Source: Corynebacterium amycolatum
GTDB lineage: Bacteria; Actinomycetota; Actinomycetes; Mycobacteriales; Mycobacteriaceae
Assembly (NCBI RefSeq): GCF_049243625.1
Contig: NZ_CP046975.1
Length of the DNA stretch: 32,000 nt
Reading direction: 5' to 3' (one strand)
Shown here: piece after piece, positions 8,200 through 23,960 of the stretch
How positions within the stretch are numbered: position 1 is the first letter of the stretch
Layout: each line of letters starts with the position of its first letter
The notes under the pieces: model-generated
The model's database searches: none
What the model saw: the letters and a program-made list of their open reading frames with translations, nothing else
What the model was told of the DNA's origin: nothing
Made by a program: the position numbers and the translations under genes

Positions 8200-8948
8200 G
8201 ATTCGCTCCTCGAGGTGAACCGGCGGATGAACAGGACGATTCCGGCGACCGCCGCGACACCGAGCCACAGGGCTGCCTCTTCCCCGGCACTATCCGGGAA
8301 GGCATCCGGGGACGCCGCCCTGATCACCTCGATGATCGGCGAAAACGGCATGTGACGTACGACGTCGCGCAGGGAGCCGTCCAAAGCGGTCGCCGGAATG
8401 AACGCAGTGGAGAACATGAGCAGCAGCATTTCCAGCGCCTGGATCGATGAGGCCGTCGACACCGGGGCGGGCACCATCAGGATCACCCCGTCCGTGACCA
8501 GGGACAGGACCGCCGCGGCGAACAGCGACCACAGGACAGTCCACGCGACGTCACCGACAGCCATGTCGAGGCCGCAGGCCCACGCGACGACCAGCAGCGC
8601 CGCGATCGACGCGGACATCCGCAGCACATCGGTGACGAGCCTGCCGGCGACATAGCCGCCTGTGGCCCCGGGCAACACGCGCACGCGGTCAACGAGCCCG
8701 GATTCGACGTCCTGTCCCACCGCCATCGCCGACGCCGCGGCGGTGAACATCGCCGCCTGGAACAGGCAGCCGCCGAGCACGAAACGCAGGTACCCGAAGC
8801 CGGATTGCCCCGCCGAGTACCCAAACACCGCGTACAGGCACAGCAGAAAGAGGGGCGGAACTACGAACATGGAAATCAGCGACGCGGTGTTGCGTCGCAA
8901 CAGTAGCAGATCCCGACGGAGAAACGCCGCGACCGACGTCGCACTCAT
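8196..8948 (-). CDS. ABC-2 type transporter permease (first permease of DrrAB-like exporter)
   Basis: 250 aa, beginning MSATSVAAFLRRDLLLLRRNTASLISMFVVPPLFLL, which is an ABC-2 signature-like start, followed by 6 predicted hydrophobic spans. The start is the ATGA overlap with the ATPase stop (8945-8948). The ORF-track extension to 9434 overlaps the ATPase gene. Confidence 0.72.
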   Translation of the reverse strand: MSATSVAAFLRRDLLLLRRNTASLISMFVVPPLFLLCLYAVFGYSAGQSGFGYLRFVLGGCLFQAAMFTAAASAMAVGQDVESGLVDRVRVLPGATGGYVAGRLVTDVLRMSASIAALLVVAWACGLDMAVGDVAWTVLWSLFAAAVLSLVTDGVILMVPAPVSTASSIQALEMLLLMFSTAFIPATALDGSLRDVVRHMPFSPIIEVIRAASPDAFPDSAGEEAALWLGVAAVAGIVLFIRRFTSRSES

Positions 8949-11139: not shown

Positions 11140-14100
11140 TTTCCATCTCGTTTCCCCGGTCCCGCGACCGGTCGATTCCTTCGGACGACGGGTCCGCTGC
11201 CCTGTCGTCCGTTTCCGGCGCTCGGCGCCGGCGTTCGATGTACTCCCCGATGAGGGCCCCGGTCAGCGCGGCATCCTCTCCGAGGACGAACGAATAGTGG
11301 TTTCCCGCGACGCTGGCGACGCAGAGGTCATCGACGAGGTGGTCCCGCCACTGGTCGTGGTTGTGAGCCTCGCCGTCATCGGGGAGAACGAACAGCGCCT
11401 CCCTCACCCGACCCTCGGGCCGGTACCGGGTGCGGGCATCGATGAGCGAGCGCAGCGAGTTGAACTCCGTCGCCGTCACCCGGTCGCCGGAAAGCCCAAG
11501 GTCCTCCAGGAGCGTCGGTGCGACTGCTGCGGCCAGGGCACGCAGACGGGCCCCCCGTTCCTCGTCGGTCTCATCGACCCCGCCGAACTCCGCCCAGAGG
11601 CGGGCAACCGGCGTTCCGTGCGGGAGATCGGCGATCGAGGGCACCACCCGGGACAGCAGCCCCTTTTCGGATTCCGCGCCGAAATCCCCGACGTCGACCG
11701 CGATCCCCGGAGCCAGGCTGTCGAGAAACACCAGCGCGGGATCAAGATCGGCCAAACGGAGCACCATCTCGGCCGCGATGGTGCCGCCGAGGCTCCATCC
11801 GACGATCGCCGGGGCGGCACCGTCGACGAGCACCTCGCGGACCCGGCCCGAGTAGTGGGCCGCGATGTCGCCGATGCCGATGGCGTGGGGGAATGGTCTC
11901 TCGAACTCCGCGAAGCCGACGCCCCACACCTGCCCGCCACCGGGGATCGCGAGGGCCAGGTCTCGGTAGATGTCGACGGTGCCGAATCCGCCGTGGACGA
12001 GGAAGATCGGGTGCGCCTCATCGCCGCTGCGCAATAGGACCAGCGAACGGTCCGCGGCCGACGCGCCGGGATCATCCGCGTCCCGCCGGTCGGTCGGCGT
12101 GGCCGTCGACTGGCCGACGAGCTCGGCCACGCCACGTGGCGTCGGCTTGGCCAGCGCTTCCGCGAGCGGCACCGATGCCCCGGTGATGTCCTGGATCCGC
12201 TGCATCAGATTCACGAATCCCAGGGAGTCGTAGCCGAGGAGGAACAGGTCGTCGTCCGCGCCGGCTTCGGCGCCGCCTAGGTCGGCCCGGACCATCCCGG
12301 TGATGACCGTCAGGTATTCGCGAACTCGGCCCATCAGGTCCCCGGATGCGATCCTCGAGATCGCGCCCGACCTGTCGCGCTCCGCCGATGACGCGCCCGC
12401 GACGCCGTCGCCGATCGCCCCACCGCTGGAAGAAGTGCCCCCGACCGCCAGACGCAGGCGCCGAACCTGGCCGACGCTCAGCGGCGCCGCTTCGGGGCAG
12501 CCCCCGGCGAAGCCCGACACCGACCTGATGTAGTGGTCGAAGATGTCCTCCACCAGTTCCGGTTCCAGGATCTGCTCGACGAAATCCCAGGCGACGTTGA
12601 TACGCCCGCCAACTTCCATCACTTGGTTGTCCAACAGCACCTGCGGGGTCTGGGAGATGGCGTAATCGACGTCACCCAGGACGTGGGCGCCCCTGCCCGA
12701 GCCATCGCCTGCCGCGGAACCCTCGCCGAACAGCAACGAGGTGTACACGAACGGCGCGATGGCCTGTCCGACGGGCAGACCCCGGTGGCGCGCGATGGCG
12801 CCGAGCAACGACACCCCGGAGTACCCGGCCGCCATGTGCCCGAGCAGCCGGTCGCGCAGTTCCGCCGTCCACCAACGGAGGTCATAGTCGGCGGCCGCTT
12901 TCACCGGCATCAGAATGACGCCGGTGAAATCACCGAAGACGCCGGCGAAGTCGGCGATTTCGGGATCACGGTTGTACGTGGTGATGTTGATGCCGACCGA
13001 ATCCCCCCTCGACCACAGCGACAGGCTCGTCGCATAGCAGGCGAGAAGCAGTGCGGACACGCTGCCGTCGGCGGCGCTGGCCCGTTCCCGCAACAGTGCG
13101 GTTTCCTCAGCGGTGAACGTGTGCGACAGGCGACGCATCCGCGGCACATCCACGTCCACGGCCGCACCGATTGATGGAAGGGTGTTGCCGGGCGGGAAGT
13201 CCTCGACCACTGTCCGAGTCAACGTCTCATCGCCACGCCCGACCGCCGAAGCCTCCCGGCGCTTCATCTCCAAGACGTACGTGCGGTAGTCGCCGGTGAC
13301 GGGCGGAAGCTCCGTTCCCCGGTACAGCTTGTCCAGGTCGTCGATGAAAATCCGTTGGCTCGCCCCGTCTCCGATGATCATGTCCACGCTGAAGAACAGG
13401 CGGTGCCGCCCGTCCGGGAGCGCGAACGCCGACAGATGGAACAAGGGCCAGCTGCCCAAATCGAATACCTGGTGGCTCAACTCATCGCGCTTGCGCCGCA
13501 CCGCCTCGACCACGGTCGCCTCATCGGCGGCCCGGTAGTCGGCGACGGCAATGCGGTAGCGCGGAACCTCCGGCAGGATCCGCTGCGTGGCTTGTGCGGT
13601 GAACACGACGCGCAGCATCGGATGCCTGCGGATGAGGTTGTCGAGGGCGTCCTCCAGGCGGTCGATGTCGGTACCGGGTTCGGTGACGGATTCGATGTAG
13701 TAGTGCTCGGTGACGCCGCCCAGCTCGAACCCGGAGTTCCGGCCGACGTAGTAGGCCTTCTGCATGTCGGTCAGGGGGAACGGCGCGTGGGGGTCGTCCC
13801 CGAATTGTTCCACCGGATCCTTCCCGTGGGCACTCGCGGAGGATTCTCGGACGCCTCCTGCGACTGAACCGGCACCGCCGGCACAATCGAGGGAAGACAC
13901 TGCCTCGGCGACGGCTTCAGACTCGGCACCGGACTCCCGCATGGCCTCCGAGACAAGGCCGGCGATGTGCGCGATGGTCGGGTCGGCGATGACGTCGCGG
14001 AAACGGAGCCGGACGCCCGTCTTCTGCCGGATCGCGCGCATCATAACCTGGAATTGCAGGGAATCGCCGCCGCGGCGGAAGAAGGACTCTCCCGCGCCGC

Positions 14101-17100
14101 ACGCCGGATCCGCCGCACTCGTCGACGGGGCTTCCCCGAGGATCTCGTCGAAGACTCCGGACACCAACTCGATCGCCCCGGGGACGGCGACGGAACCATC
14201 CGCGCCCGCGGCTCCGGCCTCCGCCCCGGCGACCTCGCCATCGGCCGTTGCCCCGCCGCCCGCGGCGCCGACGTGCCTACGAATTTCCTCCTGATCCAGT
14301 TTCCCGTTGACGGTGACGGGCAGGTGCGCCACGGGCAGCAGGACCGTCGGTACCATGTACGCTGGCAAGCAGCGGGCGAGCTCGGCCCGGACGACATCCC
14401 GCGAGCCGGTCATGTCGTCCGCCGGAACGTAAAGGCACGCCAGGAGTCCCCGACCGCCCGATTCGACGACCGCCGCCATCGACGCGGTCACCAGGCCGGA
14501 CCGCTCGAGGACCGATTCGATTTCTCCGAGTTCGACGCGGAAGCCCGCGATTTTCACCTGACGATCGCGGCGGCCGAGAAATTCCACGAAACCCTCCGCG
14601 TTGAAGATGCCCACGTCTCCGGTCCGGTAGCAGCGCCCGATGCCTGGGACATCCACGAAGGCGGCAGCGGTCCGCTCTGGATCGGCCGCATACCCCTGCG
14701 CGACGCCGAGACCGCTGATGTGGATTTCCCCCGGCACGCCGACGGGGCAATGCACCCCGTCGGGCGCGAGCACGTGAATGCCCTGGTTCGCCAGCGGGTA
14801 CCCGTAGGGAATGCGGTTTTCCAGGCTGTCGCGTTGCAGCGGGCAGTAGATGGACCAAATGCTTCCTTCGGTCGCACCGCCGAGGCTATTGATCGACGCG
14901 TTCGGGAACATGTCCATGGCGCGCGCCGGAAGCCCCGCTGCGATGCGATCGCCGCTAAGCAATACGGTGCGCACATCCGGGAACACGTCGTCGTCCGACG
15001 CCCGGACCAGGGCGAGCTCCAAAAGGGCGGGCGCGGAGTTCCACAGCGTGACCCGCTCTTCCCGCAAGACGTCGAGGATTTCATCGGCGTCGCGCTCGTC
15101 TCCGACCATCGTCACCGTCGCGCCTGCCGCAAACGCCCCGAACACGTCGTAGACCGACAGGTCGAATCCCAGCGACGACAATCCGATGATGCAATCGGCG
15201 GAGGTGACCCCATACCGCCGGTTCACGTCGAGGATGGTGTTGATGCAGTTGCGGTGACTGATCCGCACACCCTTTGGCCGGCCCGTCGTCCCCGAGGTGA
15301 AGATGACGTAGGCAAGGTCGTCAGGGGCAGTGCCAAGCGAAGGGTGCGCACCCGCGCTGCCCGCGCGGTCGCAGACTTCCGCGGCTGCGGGCTTGCCGAC
15401 GCCCGCCACTCCGCTTTGGTCCAGTTCATCGATCACGCCGGTGTCCAGAATCGGGCCCGACGCACCTGAGGCTTCCACGACGTATTCCTGTCGCTGGGCC
15501 GGCATGCCCGCGTCGACGGGCACGAATGCGGCTCCCGCACGCAATGCGCCGACCATGTTGACGATGTCGTCGGGATGCTTGGTGTAGCGCACGATCACCG
15601 CGTCCCCCGCCCCGACGCCGGAATCTGAGAGATGGCGGGCGATGCGTCCGGCCCGGGCCCAGACCTCGGCGTAGGTGTACGAGATGCCCCGGGCGGCGAG
15701 GCGCACGGCCGGCGCGTCCGGAGTCGCCGCGTATGCGGCTTCGACAAGCGAAACCAGGGTGTCATCGTGGATCGGGCCCGCAGCGTCGTTGTAGCGGGCG
15801 ACGGCCCCCTCCGTCTCCGCATGACGGATGGGCAGAGCCTCTCCCCCCTCCGCCACCACGTCCAGGGCCTCCGCAACGGCCCCGAACATCGCATCTACCG
15901 CGGGGAAGTAATCGTCGACCACGTCCCACGACAACGTCATCCCGCCCGATGCCGGCATCACTTGGATGTCGAGGCACACCTGCGCGGTTTGCGTGTAGAT
16001 GCGTTCGATGACTGGGCTGCGCCCGCTGCCCCGCTCGCCGCCGAGGTAGCTGGTGAACACCACCGGAGCAGTGGCCTGGGTCTGATTGGCCGCGTCCCGG
16101 AGGAATCGCTGTAGCACCTCCACACCGGAAACGCCGCGGTGGGACAGCCCTTCGCGAATGTCCAGGTCGATCGCCTCCGCCAACCCGTCGATGGTCGCGG
16201 CTCTCCCGGCGTCGACGCCGACGAGCATCGATGAAGTGAAATCTCCCATCACCCTCGTGCCCGCGGCGAGGCCGCTGCGTTCGCTGACAGTCACGTTGAC
16301 CGTCAACGCCGATTCGGGCAGCCACCTGCAGACGACGGCGGCGTTGACGGCCATTACCAGCGACGACAGGGTAACTCCAATGCGGCGGGCCCGTTCGCCG
16401 AGCTTGGCGGTGATCTCCGCGTCGAGCACCGTGCCCAAGCGCCGGGTCGACCAATCGTCGTCACCCCTCACGGCCGCCGGGAACTCCGGGCGCCGCGGCA
16501 GATCTGCGGCCTTCTTCTCCCAATAGGCGAGGTCCTCGGCTCGTTTCCCGTCGCGCCGGCGCGCAGAGATTGCCGCCAGGGCATCCCCATATCTGGAAGC
16601 CGGAGCCGGCGGCTCCCCGGCCAGCAGGGATTCGAGCTCGTCGAAGAACAGGTACACCGAACCCGCATCCATGACGATCATGTTGAAGTAGATGAACATC
16701 CTGCACCCGCCCGCATCTGCGAGCAGCCTCGCGGCGACCATGGGACCGTCCTCGTTCGACGATCGCGCCGCGGTTCGCATGTCCCGACGGATCTCCCCCA
16801 CCGCCGCGTCGACATCGTCGCCGGACCCGACTACCTCGACGGTGGCGAGGCACGCGCCGGTCGGGCTCAAGACCCCGGCATCGACATCGAGCCGATGGAA
16901 CAGCACGTCGTGACGCCCGAAGACCGTCCGCACGGCCTCCTCCACCTGCGGCAACGAATAGTCGTGCCGGGATTCCGCGTAAATGTACGTCGCTTGGCCG
17001 CCAAGCTCGATGTCCTCGTCCGCGCCGAGCAGGTAGGCGGTCTGGATTGGATTGAGCGGGACCGCATCCGCGGGACCGGCCCCATTTTTGCCGGCACAGC

Positions 17101-17470
17101 CGTCATCCGACTCACCCGTCGCTACAGCGGGGTCGGCCCCGGCAGCGGCGCCTGCGGCAGATCCGGCATCAGCGCCACCCCGGGCGGCGTCGATGACGGC
17201 CGCCAAATCAGCGACCGTGACCCCGGGGTCCATCGCCCCGTAATCGATGGTGACCCCGTACTCGTCCTCCAGCGCCAGCAGCATCTGGAGGAAAGTCAGG
17301 GAGTTCGGGATGTGGTCGCGGAGTTTCACGTCCGCCGAATCCAGGTGCACGCCGATGGCGTCGGCGATGGACTCCGACAGCCTTTCGGGGGCGACTCGGG
17401 CCCCGGTGCGGGCTTCTCCCACGGCGGTAGATGCGACGGCCGGCGCGATCGTTTCATTGGTCATCGTCAT
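11132..17470 (-). CDS. Non-ribosomal peptide synthetase, domain order T-Cy-A(Cys)-T-Cy-T-TE (HMWP2/PchEF-like)
   Basis: A single 2112-aa ORF. All NRPS core motifs are readable in the translation (see domain features below). The start ATG at 17470 lies 4 nt after the stop of the acyl-AMP ligase gene. Confidence 0.95.
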   Translation of the reverse strand: MTMTNETIAPAVASTAVGEARTGARVAPERLSESIADAIGVHLDSADVKLRDHIPNSLTFLQMLLALEDEYGVTIDYGAMDPGVTVADLAAVIDAARGGADAGSAAGAAAGADPAVATGESDDGCAGKNGAGPADAVPLNPIQTAYLLGADEDIELGGQATYIYAESRHDYSLPQVEEAVRTVFGRHDVLFHRLDVDAGVLSPTGACLATVEVVGSGDDVDAAVGEIRRDMRTAARSSNEDGPMVAARLLADAGGCRMFIYFNMIVMDAGSVYLFFDELESLLAGEPPAPASRYGDALAAISARRRDGKRAEDLAYWEKKAADLPRRPEFPAAVRGDDDWSTRRLGTVLDAEITAKLGERARRIGVTLSSLVMAVNAAVVCRWLPESALTVNVTVSERSGLAAGTRVMGDFTSSMLVGVDAGRAATIDGLAEAIDLDIREGLSHRGVSGVEVLQRFLRDAANQTQATAPVVFTSYLGGERGSGRSPVIERIYTQTAQVCLDIQVMPASGGMTLSWDVVDDYFPAVDAMFGAVAEALDVVAEGGEALPIRHAETEGAVARYNDAAGPIHDDTLVSLVEAAYAATPDAPAVRLAARGISYTYAEVWARAGRIARHLSDSGVGAGDAVIVRYTKHPDDIVNMVGALRAGAAFVPVDAGMPAQRQEYVVEASGASGPILDTGVIDELDQSGVAGVGKPAAAEVCDRAGSAGAHPSLGTAPDDLAYVIFTSGTTGRPKGVRISHRNCINTILDVNRRYGVTSADCIIGLSSLGFDLSVYDVFGAFAAGATVTMVGDERDADEILDVLREERVTLWNSAPALLELALVRASDDDVFPDVRTVLLSGDRIAAGLPARAMDMFPNASINSLGGATEGSIWSIYCPLQRDSLENRIPYGYPLANQGIHVLAPDGVHCPVGVPGEIHISGLGVAQGYAADPERTAAAFVDVPGIGRCYRTGDVGIFNAEGFVEFLGRRDRQVKIAGFRVELGEIESVLERSGLVTASMAAVVESGGRGLLACLYVPADDMTGSRDVVRAELARCLPAYMVPTVLLPVAHLPVTVNGKLDQEEIRRHVGAAGGGATADGEVAGAEAGAAGADGSVAVPGAIELVSGVFDEILGEAPSTSAADPACGAGESFFRRGGDSLQFQVMMRAIRQKTGVRLRFRDVIADPTIAHIAGLVSEAMRESGAESEAVAEAVSSLDCAGGAGSVAGGVRESSASAHGKDPVEQFGDDPHAPFPLTDMQKAYYVGRNSGFELGGVTEHYYIESVTEPGTDIDRLEDALDNLIRRHPMLRVVFTAQATQRILPEVPRYRIAVADYRAADEATVVEAVRRKRDELSHQVFDLGSWPLFHLSAFALPDGRHRLFFSVDMIIGDGASQRIFIDDLDKLYRGTELPPVTGDYRTYVLEMKRREASAVGRGDETLTRTVVEDFPPGNTLPSIGAAVDVDVPRMRRLSHTFTAEETALLRERASAADGSVSALLLACYATSLSLWSRGDSVGINITTYNRDPEIADFAGVFGDFTGVILMPVKAAADYDLRWWTAELRDRLLGHMAAGYSGVSLLGAIARHRGLPVGQAIAPFVYTSLLFGEGSAAGDGSGRGAHVLGDVDYAISQTPQVLLDNQVMEVGGRINVAWDFVEQILEPELVEDIFDHYIRSVSGFAGGCPEAAPLSVGQVRRLRLAVGGTSSSGGAIGDGVAGASSAERDRSGAISRIASGDLMGRVREYLTVITGMVRADLGGAEAGADDDLFLLGYDSLGFVNLMQRIQDITGASVPLAEALAKPTPRGVAELVGQSTATPTDRRDADDPGASAADRSLVLLRSGDEAHPIFLVHGGFGTVDIYRDLALAIPGGGQVWGVGFAEFERPFPHAIGIGDIAAHYSGRVREVLVDGAAPAIVGWSLGGTIAAEMVLRLADLDPALVFLDSLAPGIAVDVGDFGAESEKGLLSRVVPSIADLPHGTPVARLWAEFGGVDETDEERGARLRALAAAVAPTLLEDLGLSGDRVTATEFNSLRSLIDARTRYRPEGRVREALFVLPDDGEAHNHDQWRDHLVDDLCVASVAGNHYSFVLGEDAALTGALIGEYIERRRRAPETDDRAADPSSEGIDRSRDRGNEMEND
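11246..12049 (-). other. NRPS domain TE: type I thioesterase
   Basis: Spans aa ~1808-2075. Motifs are PIFLVHGGFG, nucleophile elbow GWSLGG (Ser1893), FLDS (candidate Asp1917) and GNHYSF (candidate His2058). Confidence 0.85.
12116..12337 (-). other. NRPS domain T2: peptidyl carrier domain
   Basis: Spans aa ~1712-1785, with motif LFLLGYDSLGFVNLM (Ser1749). Confidence 0.85.
12506..13786 (-). other. NRPS domain Cy2: canonical heterocyclization domain
   Basis: Spans aa ~1229-1655. Motifs are FPLTDMQKAYYVGR, DMIIGD (DxxxxD, aa 1363-1368), VFGDFTG, APFVYTSLL and SQTPQVLLDNQ. Confidence 0.88.
13946..14179 (-). other. NRPS domain T1: peptidyl carrier domain
   Basis: Spans aa ~1098-1175, with motif FFRRGGDSLQFQVMM (Ser1137). 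Confidence 0.85.
14276..15778 (-). other. NRPS domain A: adenylation domain, cysteine-type specificity code
   Basis: Spans aa ~565-1065. Motifs are A3 YVIFTSGTTGRPKG, A4 FDLSVYD, A5 NSLGGATEGSIWS, A7 YRTGD, A8 GRRDRQVKIAGFRVELGEIE and A10 NGKLD. Hand alignment to GrsA-PheA numbering gives the code D-L-Y-N-L-S-L-I-W-K, the classic Cys code. There is no methyltransferase or epimerase insert between A8 and A10. Confidence 0.85.
15806..17062 (-). other. NRPS domain Cy1: heterocyclization-type condensation domain, variant active-site motif
   Basis: Spans aa ~137-555. Motifs are VPLNPIQTAYLLGA (the Cy N-terminal motif lacking the GR), NMIVMD in place of DxxxxD (aa 263-268, nt 16667-16684), VMGDFTSS, APVVFTSYLGG and TQTAQVCLDIQ. 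Confidence 0.8.
17177..17398 (-). other. NRPS domain T0: N-terminal acyl/aryl carrier domain
   Basis: Spans aa ~25-98. The phosphopantetheine site motif is HIPNSLTFLQMLLALEDEYG (Ser57), with N in place of the usual D/G before SL. Boundaries are approximate. Confidence 0.75.
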
Positions 17471-17474: not shown

Positions 17475-19247
17475 TCAGAGCAGAGCCTCGAGCTTGCGGC
17501 GGAGCTTCTTGCCGTTCGACGCGACGGGCAGCTCGTCGACCCACAGAACCCGGGAGACGGGCACCCCGGCGACGCGCATCAGCTCGGTCGTCGCGGACCG
17601 GGTCACCGCCTGTTCATCAATCGGAGGTTCATCCCCGTCCGATTGCCCGGCACCGGTCGCATCGTCGGCCTTACGATCGGTCGGGGTCCGCCTGGCCAAG
17701 AACACGGCGATCTCCTCTTCGCCCGTGGCTGGGTTGCTCCGGCCGAGAACGGCAACATCGCGGTCAAGCACATTCTCCAGCACGGCTTCCAAATCAGCCG
17801 AATAGTAATTCCGGCCGTTGACGAAGATGATGTCCTTCTTCCGGCCGAGGACGAACAACTCGCCGTCGCGGAGAATGCCCATGTCCCCCGTTGCGAACGC
17901 CCCGTCATCGGTGAGCTCGTGCTCCACGATCCCCTCTGCTGTGATCGCGGCGCGGGTCATCGGAGCGCCGGCGATGTGGATTTCACCGACGGTGCCGTCG
18001 CCGAGGACCCCGCCCCCGTCATCGCGGATGGTCAACGAGATCCCCGGGACGGCCTTGCCCAAGGCGACGAACTCAGCTCCGGACTCGCTCTCGATGTCCT
18101 CGAAACGCTGCCCCGTGGCGATGCCCGTCCGGTCAAGTCGCACCGTGGACAGACCCGAGTAGATGTCCCGGGTCGTAACCAGGAGGCAAGCTTCGGACAT
18201 TCCGTAGGCGGAGGTCAGGGCATCCTCCCGGAGGCCCATGGCGGACATCGCCGCGAGGAACTTCCGGGCCAATGGAGCGTCGATGGGTTCAGAACCGCTC
18301 ATCAGCTTCTGGACGTTGGAGAAGTCGTAACCGTGGTCATCCCCGAGGGGCCGGCGCTCGAGATAGCGCAGGAAATGCTTGAACGCGAAGTTCGGGCACA
18401 CTGTCACCGTCGGCCGGTGCCTGGTCACGGCCTCGAACCACCTCGGGGGATCGGCGACCACCTCGGAAACCGGCAGCAACACCTGGTCGTACCCACGAAA
18501 AAGGGCGTAGACGTGGAAGCCGATCAGCGAAAGGTTGTGGGTCAAAGGTAGCCACGTGAGCATCTTGTTCTCGTACCGGTGCGCGTGGCGTGGGATCGTC
18601 GCGCGCAGACCGTTCAGCACGGACTCGTTGGTTACGATGACGCCTTTTGGCGATCCCGTGGAGCCGGACGAAAACTGGATGAGGGCTTCGCCGGCCGTCC
18701 CACCTCGCACCGGGAACGCGGGGACCGCCCCGGCGCCATCCCCGGAATCCACGTCCCCCGCCTGAGAGAAGTCCGATTCAGCATCACCCGGCATCGCCGC
18801 ACCCGGTTCCGCGGCAGCGTCATTGACGATGGACACGTCGAGCAGCCGGTCCTCGCCCACGACCACGGCGCCGTTTGCGCCGGTGAGCAGCGTGTGACTG
18901 CGTTCGTCGACCAGGATCGGGGCCCCGGGCATCATGTCCGAGAGCGTCCGCACCCTGTCGACGTCAACCGGGCCCGACACCGGCGGCGCAAGCGCCGGAA
19001 CCGCGCCGGCGTAGACGCAGCCCCAGAACGCCCGGATGAGCCCGCGGTTCTCCGAAACCTGGAAGATCACGCGATCGCCGGGGCCGATGCCGGCTTCGGC
19101 CAACCGAGTCGCAGCCGCCACCGCCTCCGCATGGACCCGGCCATACGGGACGAAGACGTCCCGCCGATTCTCGACGAAGGTGATCCCCTTTTTCGTCTCA
19201 TCGGCCTTGTCCCGAAGCACGTCGCTGATGGTCCGGATCGTGTTCAT
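17475..19247 (-). CDS. Stand-alone adenylate-forming enzyme, fatty-acyl-AMP-ligase (FAAL/FadD)-like starter-unit loader
   Basis: The start is trimmed to ATG 19247, which has GAAAGAGG 6-7 nt upstream. Motifs are IQFSSGSTGSPKGV (A3), WLPLTHNLSLIGF, SAYGMSEA (A5), FATGDMG (A7), GRKKDIIFVNGRNYYSADLE (A8, FAAL-type) and SNGKKLRRK (A10). These are not the DhbE/YbtE/PchD aryl-acid ligase motifs. Confidence 0.82.
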   Translation of the reverse strand: MNTIRTISDVLRDKADETKKGITFVENRRDVFVPYGRVHAEAVAAATRLAEAGIGPGDRVIFQVSENRGLIRAFWGCVYAGAVPALAPPVSGPVDVDRVRTLSDMMPGAPILVDERSHTLLTGANGAVVVGEDRLLDVSIVNDAAAEPGAAMPGDAESDFSQAGDVDSGDGAGAVPAFPVRGGTAGEALIQFSSGSTGSPKGVIVTNESVLNGLRATIPRHAHRYENKMLTWLPLTHNLSLIGFHVYALFRGYDQVLLPVSEVVADPPRWFEAVTRHRPTVTVCPNFAFKHFLRYLERRPLGDDHGYDFSNVQKLMSGSEPIDAPLARKFLAAMSAMGLREDALTSAYGMSEACLLVTTRDIYSGLSTVRLDRTGIATGQRFEDIESESGAEFVALGKAVPGISLTIRDDGGGVLGDGTVGEIHIAGAPMTRAAITAEGIVEHELTDDGAFATGDMGILRDGELFVLGRKKDIIFVNGRNYYSADLEAVLENVLDRDVAVLGRSNPATGEEEIAVFLARRTPTDRKADDATGAGQSDGDEPPIDEQAVTRSATTELMRVAGVPVSRVLWVDELPVASNGKKLRRKLEALL

Positions 19248-19421
19248 TGGTACCTCTTTCGGTTGTCGGCGCCATGCTGGTGCCGGGCGGACCGGGCCCG
19301 CATGGCGTGACCCGGAGGATGTGTCTGAAGGGTTGAAAGGGTGAAGCAACTGGGTGGGGCGCGTCTCCGCACAAGCTCGGAAACGCTCGCGGGCCCGGGA
19401 CCCGCCGGTTCCGGGTGCCCG

Positions 19422-21734
19422 TCAAGTCACTGCGGACACCAGGGCGACGACGAAGGCCGCGGCGGACGCTGCGGCCACGAACCCGTCACGCACTCGCCAG
19501 GGGTGATCGGTGCGGAAGGTGCGCCGCGGATGGCGGCCGAAGTTGCGCATCGCCAGGGTCAGGGACAGCTTTTCGGCGCAGCGCACGGCGCTGACGAACA
19601 AGGGAAAGGCGATGCACGCGGGCGTCGTCGCGCGAATGAAGCCGGAGCGGAAAGACTGCCCCGGTCGCATCGAGCGCAATCTAATCGCCCATGTCAGATG
19701 GGGGATTTCGCTGCGCAGGAACGCCGCGATGCTCACCCCGGAAATCGCTATGGTGCACCATGTGTAGGGCACCCGGAGGCGTTGCACCATGGCGTCGAAA
19801 AGCTCCTCGACGCGCATGCACGCGGAGACCAGGACCGTCCCCGCGAACACGGCCGTCAGCAGCAGTCCGTGATGGATGCCGTGGCGGACGGCCTCCGCCG
19901 GATCCCCACCGCCGTAGAACTCGGAGCGCCACCCAAGCAGGCCGAAGAACACCCCGATCAACAGGACGAGGAGGACCTTCCCCGCCGTCGCCCGAACGTC
20001 GCGTTCCGCGATCGCAGCGAGTGCGAGGAACGCGACCCCCGTCAGCGCGAGAACGGCATCTTCGCCGGAGAGCAGCCCGGCGACGAGGACGAGCATCACC
20101 GCCGCGACAATCGTGATGGTGTTCAACCCCGCGCGCCTCCGAGCGGCGGATTCACCGGTCCAGGGGCTTTCGTCCCCGGACGTCCGTACGCCGGCCGCGG
20201 GCAGTGCGCGATCCCGCCGGGACGACTCCGGGGCAGCCGGCACGTCGGCCGCGGGACCGGACCAGGCGACCTTCCCTTCGGTGACGATGCTCGCCCGATC
20301 CGCCCACGTTCGCGCGGCACGGCGGTCGTGGCACGTGAACACAACGGTTCCGCCGGCCCCGGCGTATTCCGCTAGGGCATCCAGTACGATGCGCGAGCTC
20401 GGCGAATCCAGGTGCGCCAACGGTTCGTCGAGAAGCAGCAAACGGCGATTGGCCGCCACCGCCAGGAAGATGCCCAACCGTCTTTTCTGTCCGCCCGACA
20501 GGACGAACGGCGAGACGGGGTCAAGTGCCCGGGGGCACAGGGCTTCCCGCAGTTTCCGCAGCTCATCGGCGCCGAGTGGCCCGTGCGGGTCCGTGCCGGC
20601 CAGCGCGGAGTCGATTTCCGCGGCGACGGTCGCGCGGGTGAACTGGTGCTCGGGGTTCTGGAACGCCAACGACGCGAAGGCGTCGGGGACGCGCCGGGCA
20701 GACGCGCCGTCAATCCGGAGGTCCACTCCCGCCTTCATCTGGCCCGACAGCACCGCCAGCAAGGTGGACTTACCGGCTCCGTTGGCACCGACTAGGGCAT
20801 GAATCTCGCCCCGTTCCAGTGTCAGATCGGCCCCGTTCAGGATCCTCTCCCCGCCTCGGGTCACGTGGGTTCCGGTCAAGGCCAGCAGTGGAACGGCATC
20901 CGCCTCCGATTCCGGATTGGGACGGTCCGGCACCCCCGTGCCCGGCGTACTGGCGTCCGGCGTTCCGGCGGTCGCGGCCGTCGTCGCAATGCCCTTCACC
21001 GCGATGCCATCCGGCGCTCCGTGGGCGGCGACGCTCCCGTCCGCATCGAGGATCGTCACCGTGTCGACCCACCCGTCGAACGGGCGGAGGTCGTGCTCGA
21101 TGAGCAGGATGACGCGCCCCGGGGCCCGCAAATCACGGATGGCGGCGAACAGCGACCGGCGACCGTCCTCGTCGACGTGGGCCGCGGGCTCGTCGAAGAT
21201 CATGACCTCCGGCGCCCTGGCCACCGCACCGGCGATGGCCATCCGCTGGCGTTGCCCGCCCGACAAAGCCCACGGATCCTTCTCCGCGAGCTCTGACAGG
21301 CCGAGCTCCGATAGAGCCTCGGCTGATCGCTTGGCGACGATACCGGCTTCCACGAGGGAAAACTCGAGGGCCATGGCCACGTCATCGACGACTCGGAGCG
21401 TGAGCACCTGCGTCGCCGGGTCTTGCCCGACGAAGGTGACCAGGTCCCCGTCCACGGGGCGTTCGGTGCCGTCGGCATCGACGATGTGCACGAATCCGGC
21501 ATGGTCGATGGGGATGTGCGAGGGAATCAGTCCAGCGATGAGGTGGGCCAGGCTCGTCTTTCCGCATCCCACGGGTCCCGTGATGGCGTTGATCGTGCCG
21601 AAATCGAAGGAGAGATCCACCATGTCGGGTGCCCATCGCCCATCGGCGTGCCGCACGCCCGCGCCCCTAACCCGTAACCGGGCCGGGGCCGTCCCGCGTG
21701 TCGCACCGGCGCACGCGGGTGCTCCGCCGGTCAC
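19422..21734 (-). CDS. Fused ECF-type transporter energizing module: ATPase-ATPase-transmembrane (EcfA-EcfA'-EcfT/CbiQ-like)
   Basis: 770 aa from GTG 21734, which forms a GTGA overlap with the upstream stop. NBD1 (about nt 21030-21683) has GPVGCGKTS / LSGGQRQR / VMIFDEP / IEHD. NBD2 (about nt 20250-20888) has GANGAGKST / LSGGQKRR / LLLLDEP / TCHD. The C-terminal ~235 aa (about nt 19425-20129) are multi-pass with CbiQ/EcfT-like Arg-containing coupling helices (WAIRLRSMRPG, LTLAMRNFG). The ORF-track extension to 22118 overlaps the upstream gene. Confidence 0.8.
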   Translation of the reverse strand: MTGGAPACAGATRGTAPARLRVRGAGVRHADGRWAPDMVDLSFDFGTINAITGPVGCGKTSLAHLIAGLIPSHIPIDHAGFVHIVDADGTERPVDGDLVTFVGQDPATQVLTLRVVDDVAMALEFSLVEAGIVAKRSAEALSELGLSELAEKDPWALSGGQRQRMAIAGAVARAPEVMIFDEPAAHVDEDGRRSLFAAIRDLRAPGRVILLIEHDLRPFDGWVDTVTILDADGSVAAHGAPDGIAVKGIATTAATAGTPDASTPGTGVPDRPNPESEADAVPLLALTGTHVTRGGERILNGADLTLERGEIHALVGANGAGKSTLLAVLSGQMKAGVDLRIDGASARRVPDAFASLAFQNPEHQFTRATVAAEIDSALAGTDPHGPLGADELRKLREALCPRALDPVSPFVLSGGQKRRLGIFLAVAANRRLLLLDEPLAHLDSPSSRIVLDALAEYAGAGGTVVFTCHDRRAARTWADRASIVTEGKVAWSGPAADVPAAPESSRRDRALPAAGVRTSGDESPWTGESAARRRAGLNTITIVAAVMLVLVAGLLSGEDAVLALTGVAFLALAAIAERDVRATAGKVLLVLLIGVFFGLLGWRSEFYGGGDPAEAVRHGIHHGLLLTAVFAGTVLVSACMRVEELFDAMVQRLRVPYTWCTIAISGVSIAAFLRSEIPHLTWAIRLRSMRPGQSFRSGFIRATTPACIAFPLFVSAVRCAEKLSLTLAMRNFGRHPRRTFRTDHPWRVRDGFVAAASAAAFVVALVSAVT

Positions 21735-22372
21735 CGGGTGACCCCGCGGCTGCGAAGCCCCTTTGCGACGGCAAAGCCCAGGACCAAAAACACCAAGCTC
21801 GATGCCAAGGCTACGGCGAAGCTGATCAGGGTCATGGGAGTGGTCGGCGAGTCGACGCCGACTGCGCGCGGGGCCATCGGTCCCATCAGCGCGGAGAACA
21901 ACATCGCCGACGCCACGAACTGGGGACGCGTCCACCGCCGGTACAGGGTGACCATGAACGGAAGCTCGATGAGCAATCCTTCCATAATCAGCGCCCCGAT
22001 TGCGGCGATGCCGAACGGGGTGGTCGCCGCGGACACGACGCCCATGGCAAGGCACGCGATGAGGCTCGCGCCAAGCTTGCGGACGACGATGAGGGGAACA
22101 ACGCACTGCAGGAACCACAACCCGAGCGTCGCCGCGACGAGATAAACGTGGGCGATGCCGGCGAACACCTGCAGGTAGGTCAGGGGCACGATGATGAGAG
22201 ACCCCGCGACGCCGATTGCGGCGGCGACGAGCATGTCGCGGGTGGATGGTCGGCCACCCGCTGCGACCGGTGCGACGTGCACCAACCGCCCGTCATCCGT
22301 CTGCGACGCCACCGCGTCCCCGGCTCCCCCTCCGGAGAGGGGCTCTCCGGTCGATCCACGTTTTCCGTTCAT
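21731..22372 (-). CDS. Multi-pass membrane protein, probable ECF-transporter substrate-capture (S) component
   Basis: 213 aa with about 6 hydrophobic spans after a 45-aa Gly/Ala-rich cytoplasmic N-terminus. Its size, topology and position immediately upstream of (and translationally coupled to) a fused EcfAA'T gene fit a group-I ECF S component. The family was not recognised at sequence level. Confidence 0.6.
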   Translation of the reverse strand: MNGKRGSTGEPLSGGGAGDAVASQTDDGRLVHVAPVAAGGRPSTRDMLVAAAIGVAGSLIIVPLTYLQVFAGIAHVYLVAATLGLWFLQCVVPLIVVRKLGASLIACLAMGVVSAATTPFGIAAIGALIMEGLLIELPFMVTLYRRWTRPQFVASAMLFSALMGPMAPRAVGVDSPTTPMTLISFAVALASSLVFLVLGFAVAKGLRSRGVTR

Positions 22373-22429: not shown

Positions 22430-22448
22430 TTAGGTTAGGCAATGCTTA
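22430..22448 (-). promoter_or_regulatory. DtxR/IdeR-type iron box candidate upstream of the island operon
   Basis: The plus strand reads TTAGGTTAGGCAATGCTTA. The minus strand reads TAAGCATTGCCTAACCTAA, matching 15/19 positions of the corynebacterial DtxR consensus TTAGGTTAGCCTAACCTAA, with one half-site plus centre perfect. It lies 58-76 nt upstream of the ATG at 22372. Confidence 0.55.
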
Positions 22449-22499: not shown

Positions 22500-23960
22500 T
22501 ACCGTGATGGTGCCCCCCTCACGGGGCGCGGCCACCAGGCCCGGCATGGCTTATCTGCGTGGATATTTCCATAATCCGGGGGTGTTGCCACCGGGCACCG
22601 GGGACAACCGCTGACAGCTAATAGGGACACGGACCAAACAGAGGTCTCGTCGTAACGTGGGTGCCTGCAACGGATGTCCAAGACACCGGCGACCAGCCGC
22701 AACAGAAGGACACCACCATGGAACCGTCCACAACACCCGACATCATCATCGGCCTCGACGTCGGCTAAACCGGCCACCATGCCTGCGCGCTGACCAACAC
22801 CGGCGAGAGAATTTACGACAAACCACTGCCCCAAGACGACGCCGCACGGCGCGAAATCTTCGCGTCCATGCAGGCCCACGGCAGCGTTGTCATGGTTGTC
22901 GATCAACCCAACACGATCGGCACCCTGCCCATCGCCGTGGCCCGCGACTGCGGTTGCACGGTCGGAGACCTCCCCGACCTAGCCATACGAAAAGCAGCCG
23001 ATCTCTACCCTGGACGATCAAAAACCGTCCGCCGGGATGCATTCATCATCGCCGACACCGCCCGCACCATGCCGCACACACTGCGGGCAGTCGACCGCGA
23101 CGACGAGACACTAGCAGCGCTGAAGATGCTCGCCGGATTCCACGACGACATCGCCAAAGACGCCACCCGAACGAAAAACCGCCTTCGCAGCGTGCTCACA
23201 CAGATTCACCCCGCACTCGAGCGCGTCTTTGCAGGCGAGATTCTCTCGCGCACGCTGGTGCTGGACTCGCTCATCCACTACGAAGGTCCGACAAAACTGA
23301 CCGCCGCAGGTCGAGGCCGGGTCCTGAAGTGGATGCGCAACCGCGCCAAGAAGGACCCTGCTGCCCTGGTTGACGCAATTTTCGCCGCCCTTGCCGAGCA
23401 AACTGTCACGGTATCCGGCACTGCAGCAGCAGAATTGGTCATTCCCAGCTGGCGGCGAACATCAAAGCGCTTCAAGCACAGCGCGACACGATCGCCGGGC
23501 AAGTCGAGGAGATGTGCGAATCGTTTTCCTCTTGCCCAGGTCTTGATGTCGATGCCCGGCGTAGGTATCAAGACCGCTTCTAACATCTTGTGGTCCATCG
23601 GCGATTGCCAGGACTTCGCCGGCGCCGCGCACTTGGCCGCTTACGTCGGCATTGCGCCGACCACCCGGCAGTCGGGTACGTCGGTTCGCGGCTAGTTTCC
23701 TACCAGGGTCGGCAATAAGCAGTTGAAAAAACGCGATGTTTCGATCGGCGTGGATCGCGTCGAACTGCCATCCCGCATCGTGCGACTACTACCTGCGTAA
23801 ACGGGCTGAAGGACAGAAGCACAATGCCGCGGTGATGTGGCTTGTCCGGAGCCGCTGCAACGTCATCTATGCCCTGTTGACTCGGCCCATGCATCCGCGC
23901 CGAAGCCGCGCAGAACCACGTCCACCAGCGGTAGGCGATAGCGGCCTCCCGCACCGAAAG
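22500..23960 (+). mobile_element. Decayed IS110-family insertion sequence (ends not defined)
   Basis: It contains a disrupted IS110-type (DEDD) transposase with about 220 nt of upstream non-coding sequence. IS110 elements lack classical terminal inverted repeats, so the boundaries are approximate. Confidence 0.55.
22718..23900 (+). pseudogene. IS110-family transposase pseudogene (2 in-frame stops, at least 3 frameshifts)
   Basis: MEPSTTPDIIIGLDVG is followed by TAA (22766-22768) where the family has Lys (GxDVGK). The same frame continues through TGHHACAL...VVMVVDQPNTIG. The conserved LAANIKALQAQRDTIAGQVEEM is out of frame (shifts near 23444 and about 23515). MPGVGIKTASNIL...AAYVGIAPTTRQSGTSVRG is followed by TAG (23693-23695). 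An A6 run (23726-23731) shifts the frame before MFRSAWIAS...KRAEGQKHNAAV...CNVIYALL. Confidence 0.85.

What the first reader, a model, noticed from the sequence alone, without database searches (positions are those of the whole stretch)
19422..22372. ECF-type transporter (S-like component + fused A-A'-T protein) heads an iron-box-controlled NRPS operon
Seen: the first two genes behind the DtxR-like box are a 213-aa six-span membrane protein and a 770-aa fusion. The fusion combines two complete ABC ATPase domains with a CbiQ/EcfT-like membrane domain, and the two genes are joined by a GTGA overlap. Established: ECF transporters are known mainly for vitamins, their precursors and Ni/Co. Siderophore uptake in Actinobacteria normally uses lipoprotein-dependent FecCD-type ABC importers or IrtAB/YbtPQ-type systems. 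Inference: an ECF module dedicated to a metallophore, a metal, or a biosynthetic precursor would be an undescribed pairing. I looked for a TPP riboswitch, expected if this were a YkoEDC thiamine-precursor system, and did not find one. The triple A-A'-T fusion is also uncommon.
Basis: partly seen in the sequence, partly recalled or inferred. Interest (0 to 1): 0.75.

Follow-up and report, generated by a model that had tools for sequence, protein, structure and literature searches.

The report
Iron-controlled ECF importer heading a metallophore island
A vitamin-type (ECF) uptake pump, rebuilt for a new cargo and placed behind an iron-repressor site, leads a mobile gene island of skin bacteria that makes a pyochelin-like metal chelator. 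This suggests a kind of siderophore-linked importer that I could not find described.

Summary
On the minus strand, a 213-aa six-helix YkoE-family S component (22372..21731) overlaps by GTGA a 770-aa EcfA-EcfA'-EcfT fusion (21734..19422). Both lie behind the only DtxR/IdeR-like box in the window (22430-22448). They are followed by a fatty-acyl-AMP ligase, a Cy-A(Cys)-PCP-Cy-PCP-TE NRPS, a reductase, a DrrAB-type pump, a methyltransferase and an IrtAB/YbtPQ-like pair.

The window matches a Corynebacterium amycolatum-group genome. The high-GC island is 95-98% identical across skin Corynebacterium species, Dermabacter and Brevibacterium.

It is not a thiamine system: there is no TPP riboswitch, and 4 of 5 YkoE thiamine ligands are replaced. 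S + fusion + ligase + NRPS synteny and the iron box persist down to 31-50% identity. Six independent deletions remove the biosynthetic genes but keep the ECF pair and the other transporters.

More distant relatives form S - A-A' - T - SIP (ferric-siderophore reductase) - S operons, with IdeR boxes in 22 of 25 loci.

Best reading: a dedicated, iron-repressed ECF importer for the island's metallophore. Substrate and direction are untested. The co-encoded IrtAB-like pair is a competing candidate importer. The triple fusion is recurrent, not rare.

The parts
22430..22448 (.). DtxR/IdeR-like 19-bp operator, 58 nt upstream of the S start codon
   Evidence: Matches TWAGGTWAGSCTWACCTWA at 16 of 19 positions. 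It is the only match in the window, with 0.00 expected. A box is conserved 60-160 nt upstream of S in L007, L009, L013, L034 and all close islands.
21731..22372 (-). ECF S component, YkoE family (213 aa). Residues 1-43 are variable and disordered; the six-helix core spans 44-208.
   Evidence: PF09819 at 61.7 bits. AF2 pLDDT 83 with six helices. Foldseek 5EDL TM 0.71-0.76. Clade-invariant Y66, Q68, H75, Y77, W86, C90, C107, E131, E136 and P168.
20997..21626 (-). EcfA-type ATPase domain 1 of the fusion (aa 37-246)
   Evidence: ABC_tran. ECF_ATPase NCBIfam models are the top hits over aa 37-246. Walker A GPVGCGKT, signature LSGGQRQR and Walker B IFDEP are visible in alignment A1.
20232..20870 (-). 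EcfA'-type ATPase domain 2 of the fusion (aa 289-501)
   Evidence: Second ABC_tran stretch at aa 299-440. GANGAGKST, LSGGQKRR and LLLDEP are visible in A1.
19425..20147 (-). EcfT/CbiQ-like membrane (T) domain of the fusion (aa 530-770)
   Evidence: The isolated domain scores CbiQ 26 bits, above the cut-off of 25. Its only PDB sequence hits are EcfT chains, aligned over the coupling-helix region. R156, R161 and R201 (numbering of A3, the T-domain alignment) are invariant in homologues.
17475..19247 (-). Fatty-acyl-AMP ligase (starter unit activation). The ATG at 19247 has an upstream GAAAGAGG.
   Evidence: AMP-binding domain. The best NCBIfam hits are FAAL, FadD32 and MbtM-type ligases.
11132..17470 (-). 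NRPS: ACP-Cy-A(Cys)-PCP-Cy-PCP-TE
   Evidence: Pfam domains. Cy motifs are PLNPIQTAYLLG/NMIVMDAGS and FPLTDMQKAYYVGR/DMIIGDGAS. Cys-type A-domain motifs are FDLSVYD and LGGATEGSIWS.
9961..11139 (-). NAD(P)-binding reductase-like protein (possible thiazoline reductase)
   Evidence: Weak Sacchrp_dh_NADP hit only and no NCBIfam hit. It follows the NRPS in all related clusters.
7462..9964 (-). DrrA-like ATPase (9964..8945) and two ABC-2 membrane proteins (about 8951..8196 and 8268..7462): probable exporter
   Evidence: drrA TIGR01188 at 276 bits. ABC2_membrane hits.
6671..7798 (-). SAM-dependent methyltransferase. The real start is probably near aa 113-145 of this ORF.
   Evidence: Methyltransf_23/25/31 hits over aa 192-350. 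The N-terminal part overlaps the ABC-2 gene in another frame.
3166..6962 (-). IrtA/YbtP-like (6962..4896) and IrtB/YbtQ-like (4899..3166) half-transporters
   Evidence: The best half-transporter PDB matches are IrtA at 1e-97 and YbtP at 4e-79 for the first, and IrtB at 6e-83 and YbtQ at 2e-81 for the second. MsbA reaches only about 1e-60.
22868..23695 (+). IS110-family transposase at the island's edge
   Evidence: DEDD_Tnp_IS110 and Transposase_20 domains. GC falls from 0.67-0.69 in the island to 0.59-0.60 in the flank. The transposase travels with the island in L019, L021 and L025.

Best explanation
This is a dedicated (group-I) ECF-type ABC importer, built from a YkoE-family S component with a re-specified pocket and a single-chain EcfA-EcfA'-EcfT motor. 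It is the first cistron pair of a DtxR-repressed operon on a mobile island.

Proposed sequence of events, all inferred. Under iron limitation the operon is de-repressed. The FAAL/NRPS/reductase/methyltransferase enzymes make a fatty-acylated bis-thiazoline(-idine) chelator, a lipophilic relative of pyochelin. The DrrAB-type pump exports it. The membrane-embedded S component captures the metal-loaded, membrane-partitioning chelator, and the A-A'-T motor drives it inward by the toppling mechanism known for ECF transporters. The ECF module would work beside the co-encoded IrtAB/YbtPQ-like pair.

Shown here: the domain identities, the box, the synteny, loss of the thiamine features, and retention of the pair in islands that have lost biosynthesis.

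Inferred: the substrate, the direction of transport, co-transcription in this strain, and the division of labour with the IrtAB-like pair.
For: 1. ECF identity of all four modules.

2. A single DtxR box in 32 kb, positioned upstream of S and conserved in orthologues.

3. S - A-A'T - FAAL - NRPS order is kept in at least 6 lineages at 31-52% identity, in unrelated chromosomal contexts. The genes overlap or lie 16-45 nt apart.

4. Not thiamine. There is no THI box in the window or in 8 related loci. YkoE ligands Y46, E77, Q95 and D131 are replaced by L83, S114, E131 and P168.

5. Six different deletions all begin in the FAAL gene and end in the NRPS 3' end or RED. They leave the box, S, A-A'T and the five other transporter genes without stops in 10 of 15 islands, and these transport-only islands sit in different genomes.

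6. After the deletions, pN/pS is 0.24 for the S core and 0.29 for A-A'T, against 0.68 for the orphaned methyltransferase.

7. Sister clades of the S protein sit in S1 - A-A' - T - SIP - S2 operons. An IdeR box scoring 13-17 of 19 lies in the S1/A-A' gap in 22 of 25 loci, while the background maximum is 12 of 19 in 895 windows. None has a THI box.

8. All characterised ECF systems are importers (established knowledge of the family; the ECF papers listed all describe uptake).
Against: No expression, binding or transport data exist.

The operon also encodes an IrtAB/YbtPQ-like pair, the family known to import mycobactin and yersiniabactin. That pair could be the sole metallophore importer.

Two related NRPS clusters show no ECF genes in the sequence fetched (L037, a cluster cut by the contig end, and L039). 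The ECF module is therefore not shown to be universal for this chemistry.

Retention in deleted islands could partly reflect recent deletion and the promoter-proximal position of the pair. The within-class substitution counts are small and the pairs are not independent.

A 175-nt gap separates the fusion from the FAAL gene in this strain.

The T-domain assignment rests on marginal scores.
Confidence: 0.5

Rival explanations
1. The IrtAB/YbtPQ-like pair is the metallophore importer. The ECF module brings in a different iron-limitation cargo: a free metal ion, heme, a foreign siderophore, or a complex of the same chelator with another metal. This would resemble the second inner-membrane route in the yersiniabactin (YbtX) and pyochelin (FptX) systems, which I recall from memory.
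For: ExpA and ExpB match IrtA/IrtB and YbtP/YbtQ far better than they match exporters such as MsbA. An iron-regulated ECF heme importer, LhaSTA, exists (PMC7299338). The clade-invariant His, Tyr and Cys residues in S could ligate a metal or heme.
Against: The S clade is found only in this NRPS island. Tight, translationally coupled synteny with FAAL-NRPS across distant lineages points to the island's own product. S is of the YkoE type, not the CbiM/NikM metal type.
Confidence: 0.2
2. The ECF module supplies a biosynthetic precursor, such as cysteine/cystine, a thiazole-like fragment or the fatty-acid starter, to feed the NRPS during iron starvation.
For: The genes lie directly upstream of the FAAL and NRPS genes. 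The NRPS uses two cysteines per product. YkoE relatives bind a thiazole-containing vitamin.
Against: The pair is kept intact and under purifying selection in 10 islands that have lost the FAAL and NRPS. More distant relatives of S are linked to SIP reductases and IdeR boxes, not to biosynthetic genes.
Confidence: 0.1
3. The island's product is mainly an antimicrobial or toxic lipopeptide. The transporters are kept as self-protection or immunity genes, and the ECF module has an accessory role such as re-uptake for detoxification.
For: Transport-only islands outnumber complete ones and spread horizontally. This pattern is also seen for orphan immunity genes (my knowledge). DrrAB-type pumps are classical resistance pumps.
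Against: The conserved DtxR/IdeR box and the bis-thiazoline chemistry point to metal acquisition. An importer does not confer resistance. IrtAB/YbtPQ-like proteins are siderophore importers.
Confidence: 0.1
4. It is an ordinary YkoEDC thiamine/HMP importer that happens to sit next to the NRPS genes.
For: S belongs to PF09819, and its only solved relative is B. subtilis YkoE.
Against: There is no THI box. Only 1 of 5 thiamine-contacting residues is kept. An iron box takes the place of the riboswitch. The S clade is monophyletic and exclusive to the NRPS island.
Confidence: 0.05

Closest known systems
YkoEDC thiamine ECF transporter of Bacillus subtilis (S component YkoE, PDB 5EDL)
   Same: Both are group-I dedicated ECF systems with the same S-component Pfam family (PF09819) and fold (TM 0.71-0.76). 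The two ATPase domains are fused in one chain, and the S gene comes first.
   Different: Identity is 23%. Four of five thiamine ligands are replaced. An iron-repressor box replaces the THI-box riboswitch. The T component is fused to the ATPases. The system is embedded in an NRPS operon.
LhaSTA, the iron-regulated ECF heme importer of Staphylococcus lugdunensis
   Same: It is an ECF transporter under iron control inside an iron-acquisition locus. It is the only iron-related ECF system I found in the literature (PMC7299338).
   Different: Its cargo is heme, its repressor is Fur, it has separate S, T and A genes, and it has no biosynthetic genes. Whether LhaS is related to this S protein was not tested.
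IrtAB (mycobactin) and YbtPQ (yersiniabactin) exporter-fold siderophore importers
   Same: They perform the same job proposed for the ECF module, for chemically similar (thiazoline/oxazoline, lipophilic) siderophores. Close homologues are encoded at the 3' end of this same operon.
   Different: The transporter class is entirely different: type IV half-transporter heterodimers rather than S + A-A'-T. The IrtA-like protein here lacks IrtA's SIP reductase domain.
CbiMNQO / NikMNQO metal-ion ECF transporters
   Same: They are group-I ECF systems for metals, with CbiQ-type T and CbiO-type A components. The Pfam names of the hits here (ABC_cobalt, CbiQ, cbiO) come from them.
   Different: Their S components (CbiM/NikM) have a different family and a seven-helix architecture with an N-terminal metal ligand (stated in PMC5037267). 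The S here is of the YkoE type.
Corynebacterium diphtheriae sidAB-cdtPQ locus (DtxR- and Zur-regulated, yersiniabactin-like, product unknown)
   Same: A DtxR-box-controlled NRPS locus with a YbtPQ-like pair in the same genus, with no known product (PMC6711530).
   Different: It combines NRPS with PKS. Its neighbour is a NikA/Opp-type binding-protein ABC importer rather than an ECF module. It has no FAAL and no DrrAB-type pump.
Pyochelin and yersiniabactin systems with two inner-membrane routes (PchHI + FptX; YbtPQ + YbtX), recalled from memory
   Same: A bis-thiazoline chelator made by Cy-domain NRPS with a reductase and an N-methyltransferase. An IrtAB-like ABC pair is accompanied by a second, unrelated inner-membrane transporter.
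   Different: The second transporter there is an MFS-type permease, and here it is an ECF module. The starter there is salicylate, and here it is a fatty acyl unit.

Membership tests
ECF (energy-coupling factor) ABC importer, group I | Small integral-membrane S component with the six-helix S-component fold | tested here: met
   PF09819 at 61.7 bits against a cut-off of 25.2. The AF2 model has six helices and pLDDT 83. Its only significant fold match is S component 5EDL, TM 0.71-0.76.
ECF (energy-coupling factor) ABC importer, group I | EcfT/CbiQ-type T component with C-terminal coupling helices carrying conserved Arg motifs | tested here: met
   The result is marginal. The isolated domain scores CbiQ 26.0 bits against a cut-off of 25. 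The only PDB hits are EcfT chains at E 0.01-0.06, aligned over the coupling helices. Arg residues in xRLRxxR and SRxFGR are invariant.
ECF (energy-coupling factor) ABC importer, group I | Two EcfA/CbiO-type ATPase domains | tested here: met
   Two ABC_tran domains are present. ECF_ATPase_1/2 and cbiO are the top NCBIfam hits at 187-195 bits, though these fall below the full-length equivalog cut-offs.
ECF (energy-coupling factor) ABC importer, group I | S gene adjacent to and co-oriented with its own A and T genes | tested here: met
   A 4-nt GTGA overlap joins the genes. The arrangement is conserved in homologues.
ECF (energy-coupling factor) ABC importer, group I | ATP-driven import of a bound micronutrient | not testable with these tools
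   Requires uptake assays.
YkoEDC thiamine/HMP transporter | THI-box (TPP) riboswitch upstream | tested here: not met
   No TPP hit in the window at gathering threshold or at E<=10 over 22300-22950. No hit in 8 related loci.
YkoEDC thiamine/HMP transporter | Thiamine-contacting residues Tyr46, Trp49, Glu77, Gln95 and Asp131 of YkoE | tested here: not met
   In the HMMER alignment to 5EDL, using the residues named in PMC5037267, they map to L83, W86, S114, E131 and P168. Only Trp is kept. The alignment is weak (E 0.008) but is anchored on G84/W86, RKxG, P119/G121 and E136.
DtxR/IdeR regulon | 19-bp palindromic operator matching the consensus in the promoter region | tested here: met
   16 of 19 positions match, the site is unique in the window, and 0.00 matches are expected.
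DtxR/IdeR regulon | Site conserved upstream of orthologues in other genomes | tested here: met
   The box scores 14-17 of 19 in the close islands. It scores 16 of 19 in L007 and L009, 15 of 19 in L013, and 16 of 19 in L034/L035. In each locus that has one, it is the only site or overlapping site pair of 15 or more (L025 also has one far upstream). L011 and L032/L033 reach only 14 of 19.
DtxR/IdeR regulon | Iron- and DtxR-dependent repression | not testable with these tools
   Requires qRT-PCR, a reporter assay or EMSA.
IrtAB/YbtPQ siderophore importers (the two 3' genes of the operon) | Heterodimer of two exporter-fold half-transporters closest to IrtA/IrtB and YbtP/YbtQ | tested here: met
   IrtA scores 1e-97 and IrtB 6e-83 over full length. 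YbtP scores 4e-79 and YbtQ 2e-81. MsbA reaches about 1e-60.
IrtAB/YbtPQ siderophore importers (the two 3' genes of the operon) | N-terminal SIP (FAD) reductase domain as in IrtA | tested here: not met
   No SIP or FAD_binding_9 hit. About 110 residues precede the membrane domain.
Pyochelin/yersiniabactin-type thiazoline NRPS | Cyclisation (Cy) domains with a DxxxxD motif and a Cys-activating A domain | tested here: met
   The Cy1 motifs are PLNPIQTAYLLG and NMIVMDAGS, with the first Asp replaced by Asn. The Cy2 motifs are FPLTDMQKAYYVGR and DMIIGDGAS. The A domain carries FDLSVYD and LGGATEGSIWS. Motifs were read by eye and not scored with a specificity predictor.
Pyochelin/yersiniabactin-type thiazoline NRPS | Thiazolinyl imide reductase (PchG/Irp3 type) | tested here: inconclusive
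   The 392-aa protein gives only a weak Sacchrp_dh_NADP hit and no NCBIfam hit.
LhaSTA-type heme ECF transporter | S component homologous to LhaS | not tested

The most novel reading that the evidence does not exclude
YkoE-family ECF transporters form an unrecognised, widespread class of DtxR/IdeR-controlled siderophore importers in Actinobacteria. One branch is welded to a thiazoline-lipopeptide NRPS island. Other branches sit in S - A-A' - T - SIP reductase - S operons. The NRPS-less, transport-only versions of the island spread horizontally among human skin bacteria as piracy devices, letting non-producers take up a neighbour's chelator.
Probability: 0.4. Interest if true: 0.85.

Novelty: new variant of a known kind. 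Interest (0 to 1): 0.72.

Why it matters
ECF transporters are regarded as vitamin, Ni/Co and, recently, heme importers. Siderophore import in Gram-positive bacteria is attributed to binding-protein ABC systems and IrtAB/YbtPQ types.

A siderophore- or metallophore-dedicated ECF class would add a third route. It would suit lipophilic, membrane-resident chelators, because the binding protein itself sits in the membrane.

It would also explain why transporter-based genome mining, which relies on a small fixed set of transporter families (PMC12971057), could miss such clusters. It would give ECF-inhibitor programmes an iron-acquisition target.

The producer versus transport-only polymorphism of this mobile island is a ready-made natural system for studying public-good cheating in the human skin microbiome. 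The island occurs in Corynebacterium, Dermabacter and Brevibacterium.

Tried and rejected
1. I recalled that Bifidobacterium sifABCDE was an ECF-plus-reductase iron system. The paper shows FtsX-type permeases, not ECF, so the lead was dropped.

2. Searching the large protein collection with the T domain alone gave only 2 near-identical hits, because candidate selection saturated. I used the exhaustive representative search with the full fusion instead.

It was repeated with the five generic relatives.

4. The profile of the whole fusion against PDB was swamped by ABC ATPases. It was redone on the T domain only.

5. The reductase gave no NCBIfam match, so its role stays inferred.

6. The first per-gene substitution script timed out. 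The second gave a spurious pN/pS near 1 for the IrtA-like gene, because MAFFT dropped a '*' and shifted the codons. This was corrected to 0.22-0.27.

7. The simple sigma-70 and terminator scan found nothing in 19100-22900, so it says nothing about operon structure.

8. C. diphtheriae sidAB-cdtPQ was considered as the same cluster and rejected. It has a PKS and an Opp/Nik-type importer and no ECF.

9. Literature searches for ECF combined with siderophore, NRPS, metallophore, IdeR or DtxR found no description of this pairing. The library lacks most subscription journals, so absence is not proof.

Full report
**What is there**

All relevant genes are on the minus strand. From the promoter end they are:
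- a 19-bp DtxR/IdeR-like box (22430-22448);
- a 213-aa membrane protein (22372..21731);
- a 770-aa protein starting at a GTG that overlaps the preceding stop as GTGA (21734..19422; sequence read);
- after a 175-nt gap, a fatty-acyl-AMP ligase (19247..17475);
- a 2112-aa NRPS (17470..11132);
- a 392-aa reductase-like protein;
- a DrrA-like ATPase with two ABC-2 membrane proteins;
- a methyltransferase;
- two ABC half-transporters (6962..4896 and 4899..3166).

The block has 67-69% G+C against 59-60% in the flanks, and it abuts an IS110 transposase. The exact S protein is encoded on CP008913.1 and on other Corynebacterium assemblies. The nearest named genome is C. amycolatum SK46.

**Is it an ECF transporter?**

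The small protein matches PF09819 at E 1e-16. Its only PDB sequence hit is B. subtilis YkoE at E 0.008. An AlphaFold model from 16 sequences has pLDDT 83 and six helices. Its only significant fold match is the YkoE structure 5EDL, with TM 0.71-0.76 and rmsd 2.4 Å.

The large protein has two ABC_tran domains with intact Walker A, signature and Walker B motifs. ECF ATPase models are its best NCBIfam hits.

The C-terminal 241 residues score below the CbiQ cut-off in the whole protein. Taken alone they reach 26.0 bits against a cut-off of 25, and 3 of 5 homologues also match. A profile of five homologues hits only EcfT chains in the PDB (E 0.01-0.06), aligned over the coupling helices.

So the S + A-A'-T description is right, although the T assignment is marginal by score.

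The fusion is not unusual. In an exhaustive search of 1.84 billion representatives, about a third of the top 150 are 690 aa or longer. At least 19 align through the T domain, and 8 of 10 tested have 2x ABC_tran plus CbiQ above threshold.

**Is it a thiamine system?**

No. Rfam finds no TPP riboswitch in the window (the only hit is an unrelated FMN riboswitch), none in the 650 nt upstream at E<=10, and none in eight related loci.

The YkoE structure paper names Tyr46, Trp49, Glu77, Gln95 and Asp131 as the thiamine contacts (PMC5037267). In the alignment these correspond to L83, W86, S114, E131 and P168, so only the Trp is kept.

The NRPS-linked clade has its own invariant polar set: Y66, Q68, H75, Y77, C90, C107, E131 and P168. 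Its more distant relatives lack this set.

**Iron control**

The box matches the consensus at 16 of 19 positions. It is the only match in 32 kb at up to 3 mismatches, with 0.00 expected in 100 shuffles.

A box of 15-17 of 19 lies 60-160 nt upstream of S in all close islands but L020 (14 of 19) and in distant orthologues: L007, L009, L013 and L034/L035. In each such locus it is the only site or overlapping site pair of 15 or more, apart from one unrelated far-upstream site in L025. L011 and L032/L033 reach only 14 of 19. Function is inferred, not shown.

**What the island makes**

The NRPS reads ACP-Cy-A-PCP-Cy-PCP-TE. Both condensation-type domains carry Cy signatures: PLNPIQTAYLLG with NMIVMDAGS, and FPLTDMQKAYYVGR with DMIIGDGAS. 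The A domain has the FDLSVYD and LGGATEGSIWS motifs typical of cysteine-activating domains (my reading of the motifs).

Adding the FAAL, the reductase-like protein and the methyltransferase, the predicted product is a fatty-acylated bis-thiazoline/thiazolidine acid. That is a lipophilic analogue of pyochelin. This is inference.

**Co-occurrence**

The S clade is small: 21 clusters at 90% identity in 5.8 billion sequences. Every locus with enough sequence has the fusion directly downstream, followed by FAAL-NRPS or its deletion remnant.

This holds for metagenome contigs with S at 74, 51, 45 and 46% identity. It also holds for C. kroppenstedtii and C. parakroppenstedtii, a Mobiluncus MAG, a bin labelled Oscillibacter, and L038; the short Actinomyces MAG contig (L035) ends inside the fusion gene. 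In several of these the fusion and FAAL genes overlap or lie 16-45 nt apart.

The transporter sets vary between clusters:
- L038 has ECF plus the IrtAB-like pair but no DrrAB.
- L039 has DrrAB only.
- L037 has no ECF genes upstream, and its contig ends inside the DrrA-like gene.

The ECF module is therefore frequent in this NRPS family but not shown to be universal.

**A mobile island and transport-only derivatives**

Fifteen loci carry the island at 95-98% nucleotide identity, while the flanks are unrelated. The loci come from C. amycolatum, C. tuberculostearicum, C. aurimucosum, C. hesseae, C. yonathiae, C. meitnerae, C. axilliensis, Dermabacter hominis, Brevibacterium sp. and others. In many of them only about 120 bp upstream of S is shared.

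In ten of the fifteen, FAAL-NRPS (and part or all of the reductase region, except in L027) is deleted. There are six different junctions. All start inside the FAAL gene and end in the NRPS 3' end or the reductase gene.

In every one of these ten, the iron box (weakened to 14 of 19 in L020), S, the fusion, DrrA, both ABC-2 genes and both half-transporters remain without frameshifts. The only stop lies in a probably non-coding N-terminal extension of the IrtA-like ORF in L024. Two deletion types occur in several species with different flanks, so the transport-only island itself moves.

Substitutions that arose within those two deletion classes give these pN/pS values:

| Gene | pN/pS |
|---|---|
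| S core | 0.24 |
| Fusion (A-A'-T) | 0.29 |
| DrrA | 0.05 |
| IrtA-like | 0.22 |
| IrtB-like | 0.19 |
| Orphaned methyltransferase | 0.68 |

For S core plus fusion against the methyltransferase, Fisher p is about 0.0006. The pairs are not independent and recombination is possible.

This is the pattern expected if import of a neighbour's product is useful without making it. It argues against a precursor-supply role.

**A wider iron-linked ECF class**

A more distant S homologue (34% identity) lies in an operon S1 - A-A' - T - SIP (FAD_binding_9/SIP ferric-siderophore reductase family) - S2. A metagenome scan with such sequences returned 80 loci. Every locus long enough to show it (at least 28) has this five-gene order or its visible part.

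The S1/A-A' gap holds an IdeR-like box scoring 13-17 of 19 in 22 of 25 loci. The best score in 895 random 250-nt windows from the same loci never exceeds 12. A simple THI-box pattern finds nothing.

In a rough NJ tree rooted on B. subtilis YkoE, the NRPS-linked S proteins form one clade. It is sister to these actinobacterial iron-box-linked S1/S2 clades.

**The complication**

Among half-transporters, the two 3' ABC genes are closest to IrtA/IrtB (1e-97 and 6e-83, full length) and YbtP/YbtQ, well above MsbA-type exporters. The IrtA-like protein has no SIP domain.

The island thus already has the importer type known for mycobactin and yersiniabactin. The ECF module may be a parallel, high-affinity, membrane-phase route. 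It may instead serve another metal complex, as with the second inner-membrane transporters of the pyochelin and yersiniabactin systems (from memory). Or it may carry another iron-related cargo. This is the main reason confidence in the specific substrate is only about 0.5.

**Literature**

Searches found no paper linking ECF transporters to siderophores, NRPS clusters, metallophores, IdeR or DtxR. The LhaSTA paper states that an ECF role in iron acquisition was unknown before their heme importer (PMC7299338). C. amycolatum and skin-Corynebacterium genome papers do not describe this cluster. C. diphtheriae sidAB-cdtPQ is a different, ECF-less locus. The library omits most subscription journals.

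**Verdict**

- The fusion is a recurrent architecture.
- An IrtAB-like pair co-exists with the ECF module in the same operon.

This is a new variant of a known transporter kind, with comparative evidence that it belongs to a broader, undescribed iron-regulated ECF class.

Noticed in passing
window 31511-31680 (-) and 30781-31500 (-): An FMN riboswitch (91.8 bits, E 5e-20) lies directly upstream of a 239-aa PF04973 (NMN_transporter/PnuC-like) gene. This is the arrangement expected for a riboflavin transporter. It is unrelated to the island.
   Followed up: partly
L015 3866-8546; L042-L098 (metagenome loci): A five-gene operon S1 - A-A' - T - SIP reductase - S2 has two YkoE-family S genes sharing one ECF motor. 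An IdeR-like box sits in the S1/A-A' gap, so S1 lies upstream of the box. The operon is seen in at least 28 loci.
   Followed up: partly
L017, L020-L028 (island coordinates 3188-3963 to 10620-12301): Six independent deletions of the FAAL-NRPS-reductase block leave all transporter genes intact. At least one creates a called FAAL::reductase fusion ORF (P0038, 355 aa).
   Followed up: yes
window 22868-23695 (+); L019, L021, L025: An IS110-family transposase travels with the island in some genomes but not in others. In several species only about 120 bp upstream of S is shared. The island's integration mechanism and ends were not defined.
   Followed up: partly
L024 (NZ_JVVM01000020.1, labelled Corynebacterium vitaeruminis 1285_CVIT): About 9.6 kb of flank is 94% identical to the C. 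amycolatum-type window, so the record is probably mislabelled.
   Followed up: no
window 6671-7798 (-) and 4896-6962 (-): The longest ORFs overstate two genes. The methyltransferase ORF overlaps the ABC-2 gene by 337 nt, and relatives break frame near aa 141. The IrtA-like ORF has about 100 N-terminal residues before homology begins, and L024 carries a stop at aa 62. The true starts are probably downstream.
   Followed up: partly
window 22244-22372 (-), S residues 1-43: The N-terminal tail of S is Gly/Ala-rich, is predicted to be disordered (pLDDT below 50), and varies by 10-aa indels between near-identical islands (213 against 223 aa). Its role, or the true start codon, is unclear.
   Followed up: no
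L009 9227-9904, L011 9158-9862, L013 3722-4372: In the distant versions of the cluster, a 4'-phosphopantetheinyl transferase gene is divergently transcribed from the S gene, sharing the box-containing intergenic region. No such gene is present in the window's island.
   Followed up: no
L014 7901-7919 (Cellulomonas oligotrophica): A plain S - A-A' - T operon with a separate T gene has a palindromic IdeR-like box (TGAGGTGAGGCAAACCTCA, 15 of 19) 100 nt upstream of S and no TPP riboswitch.
   Followed up: partly
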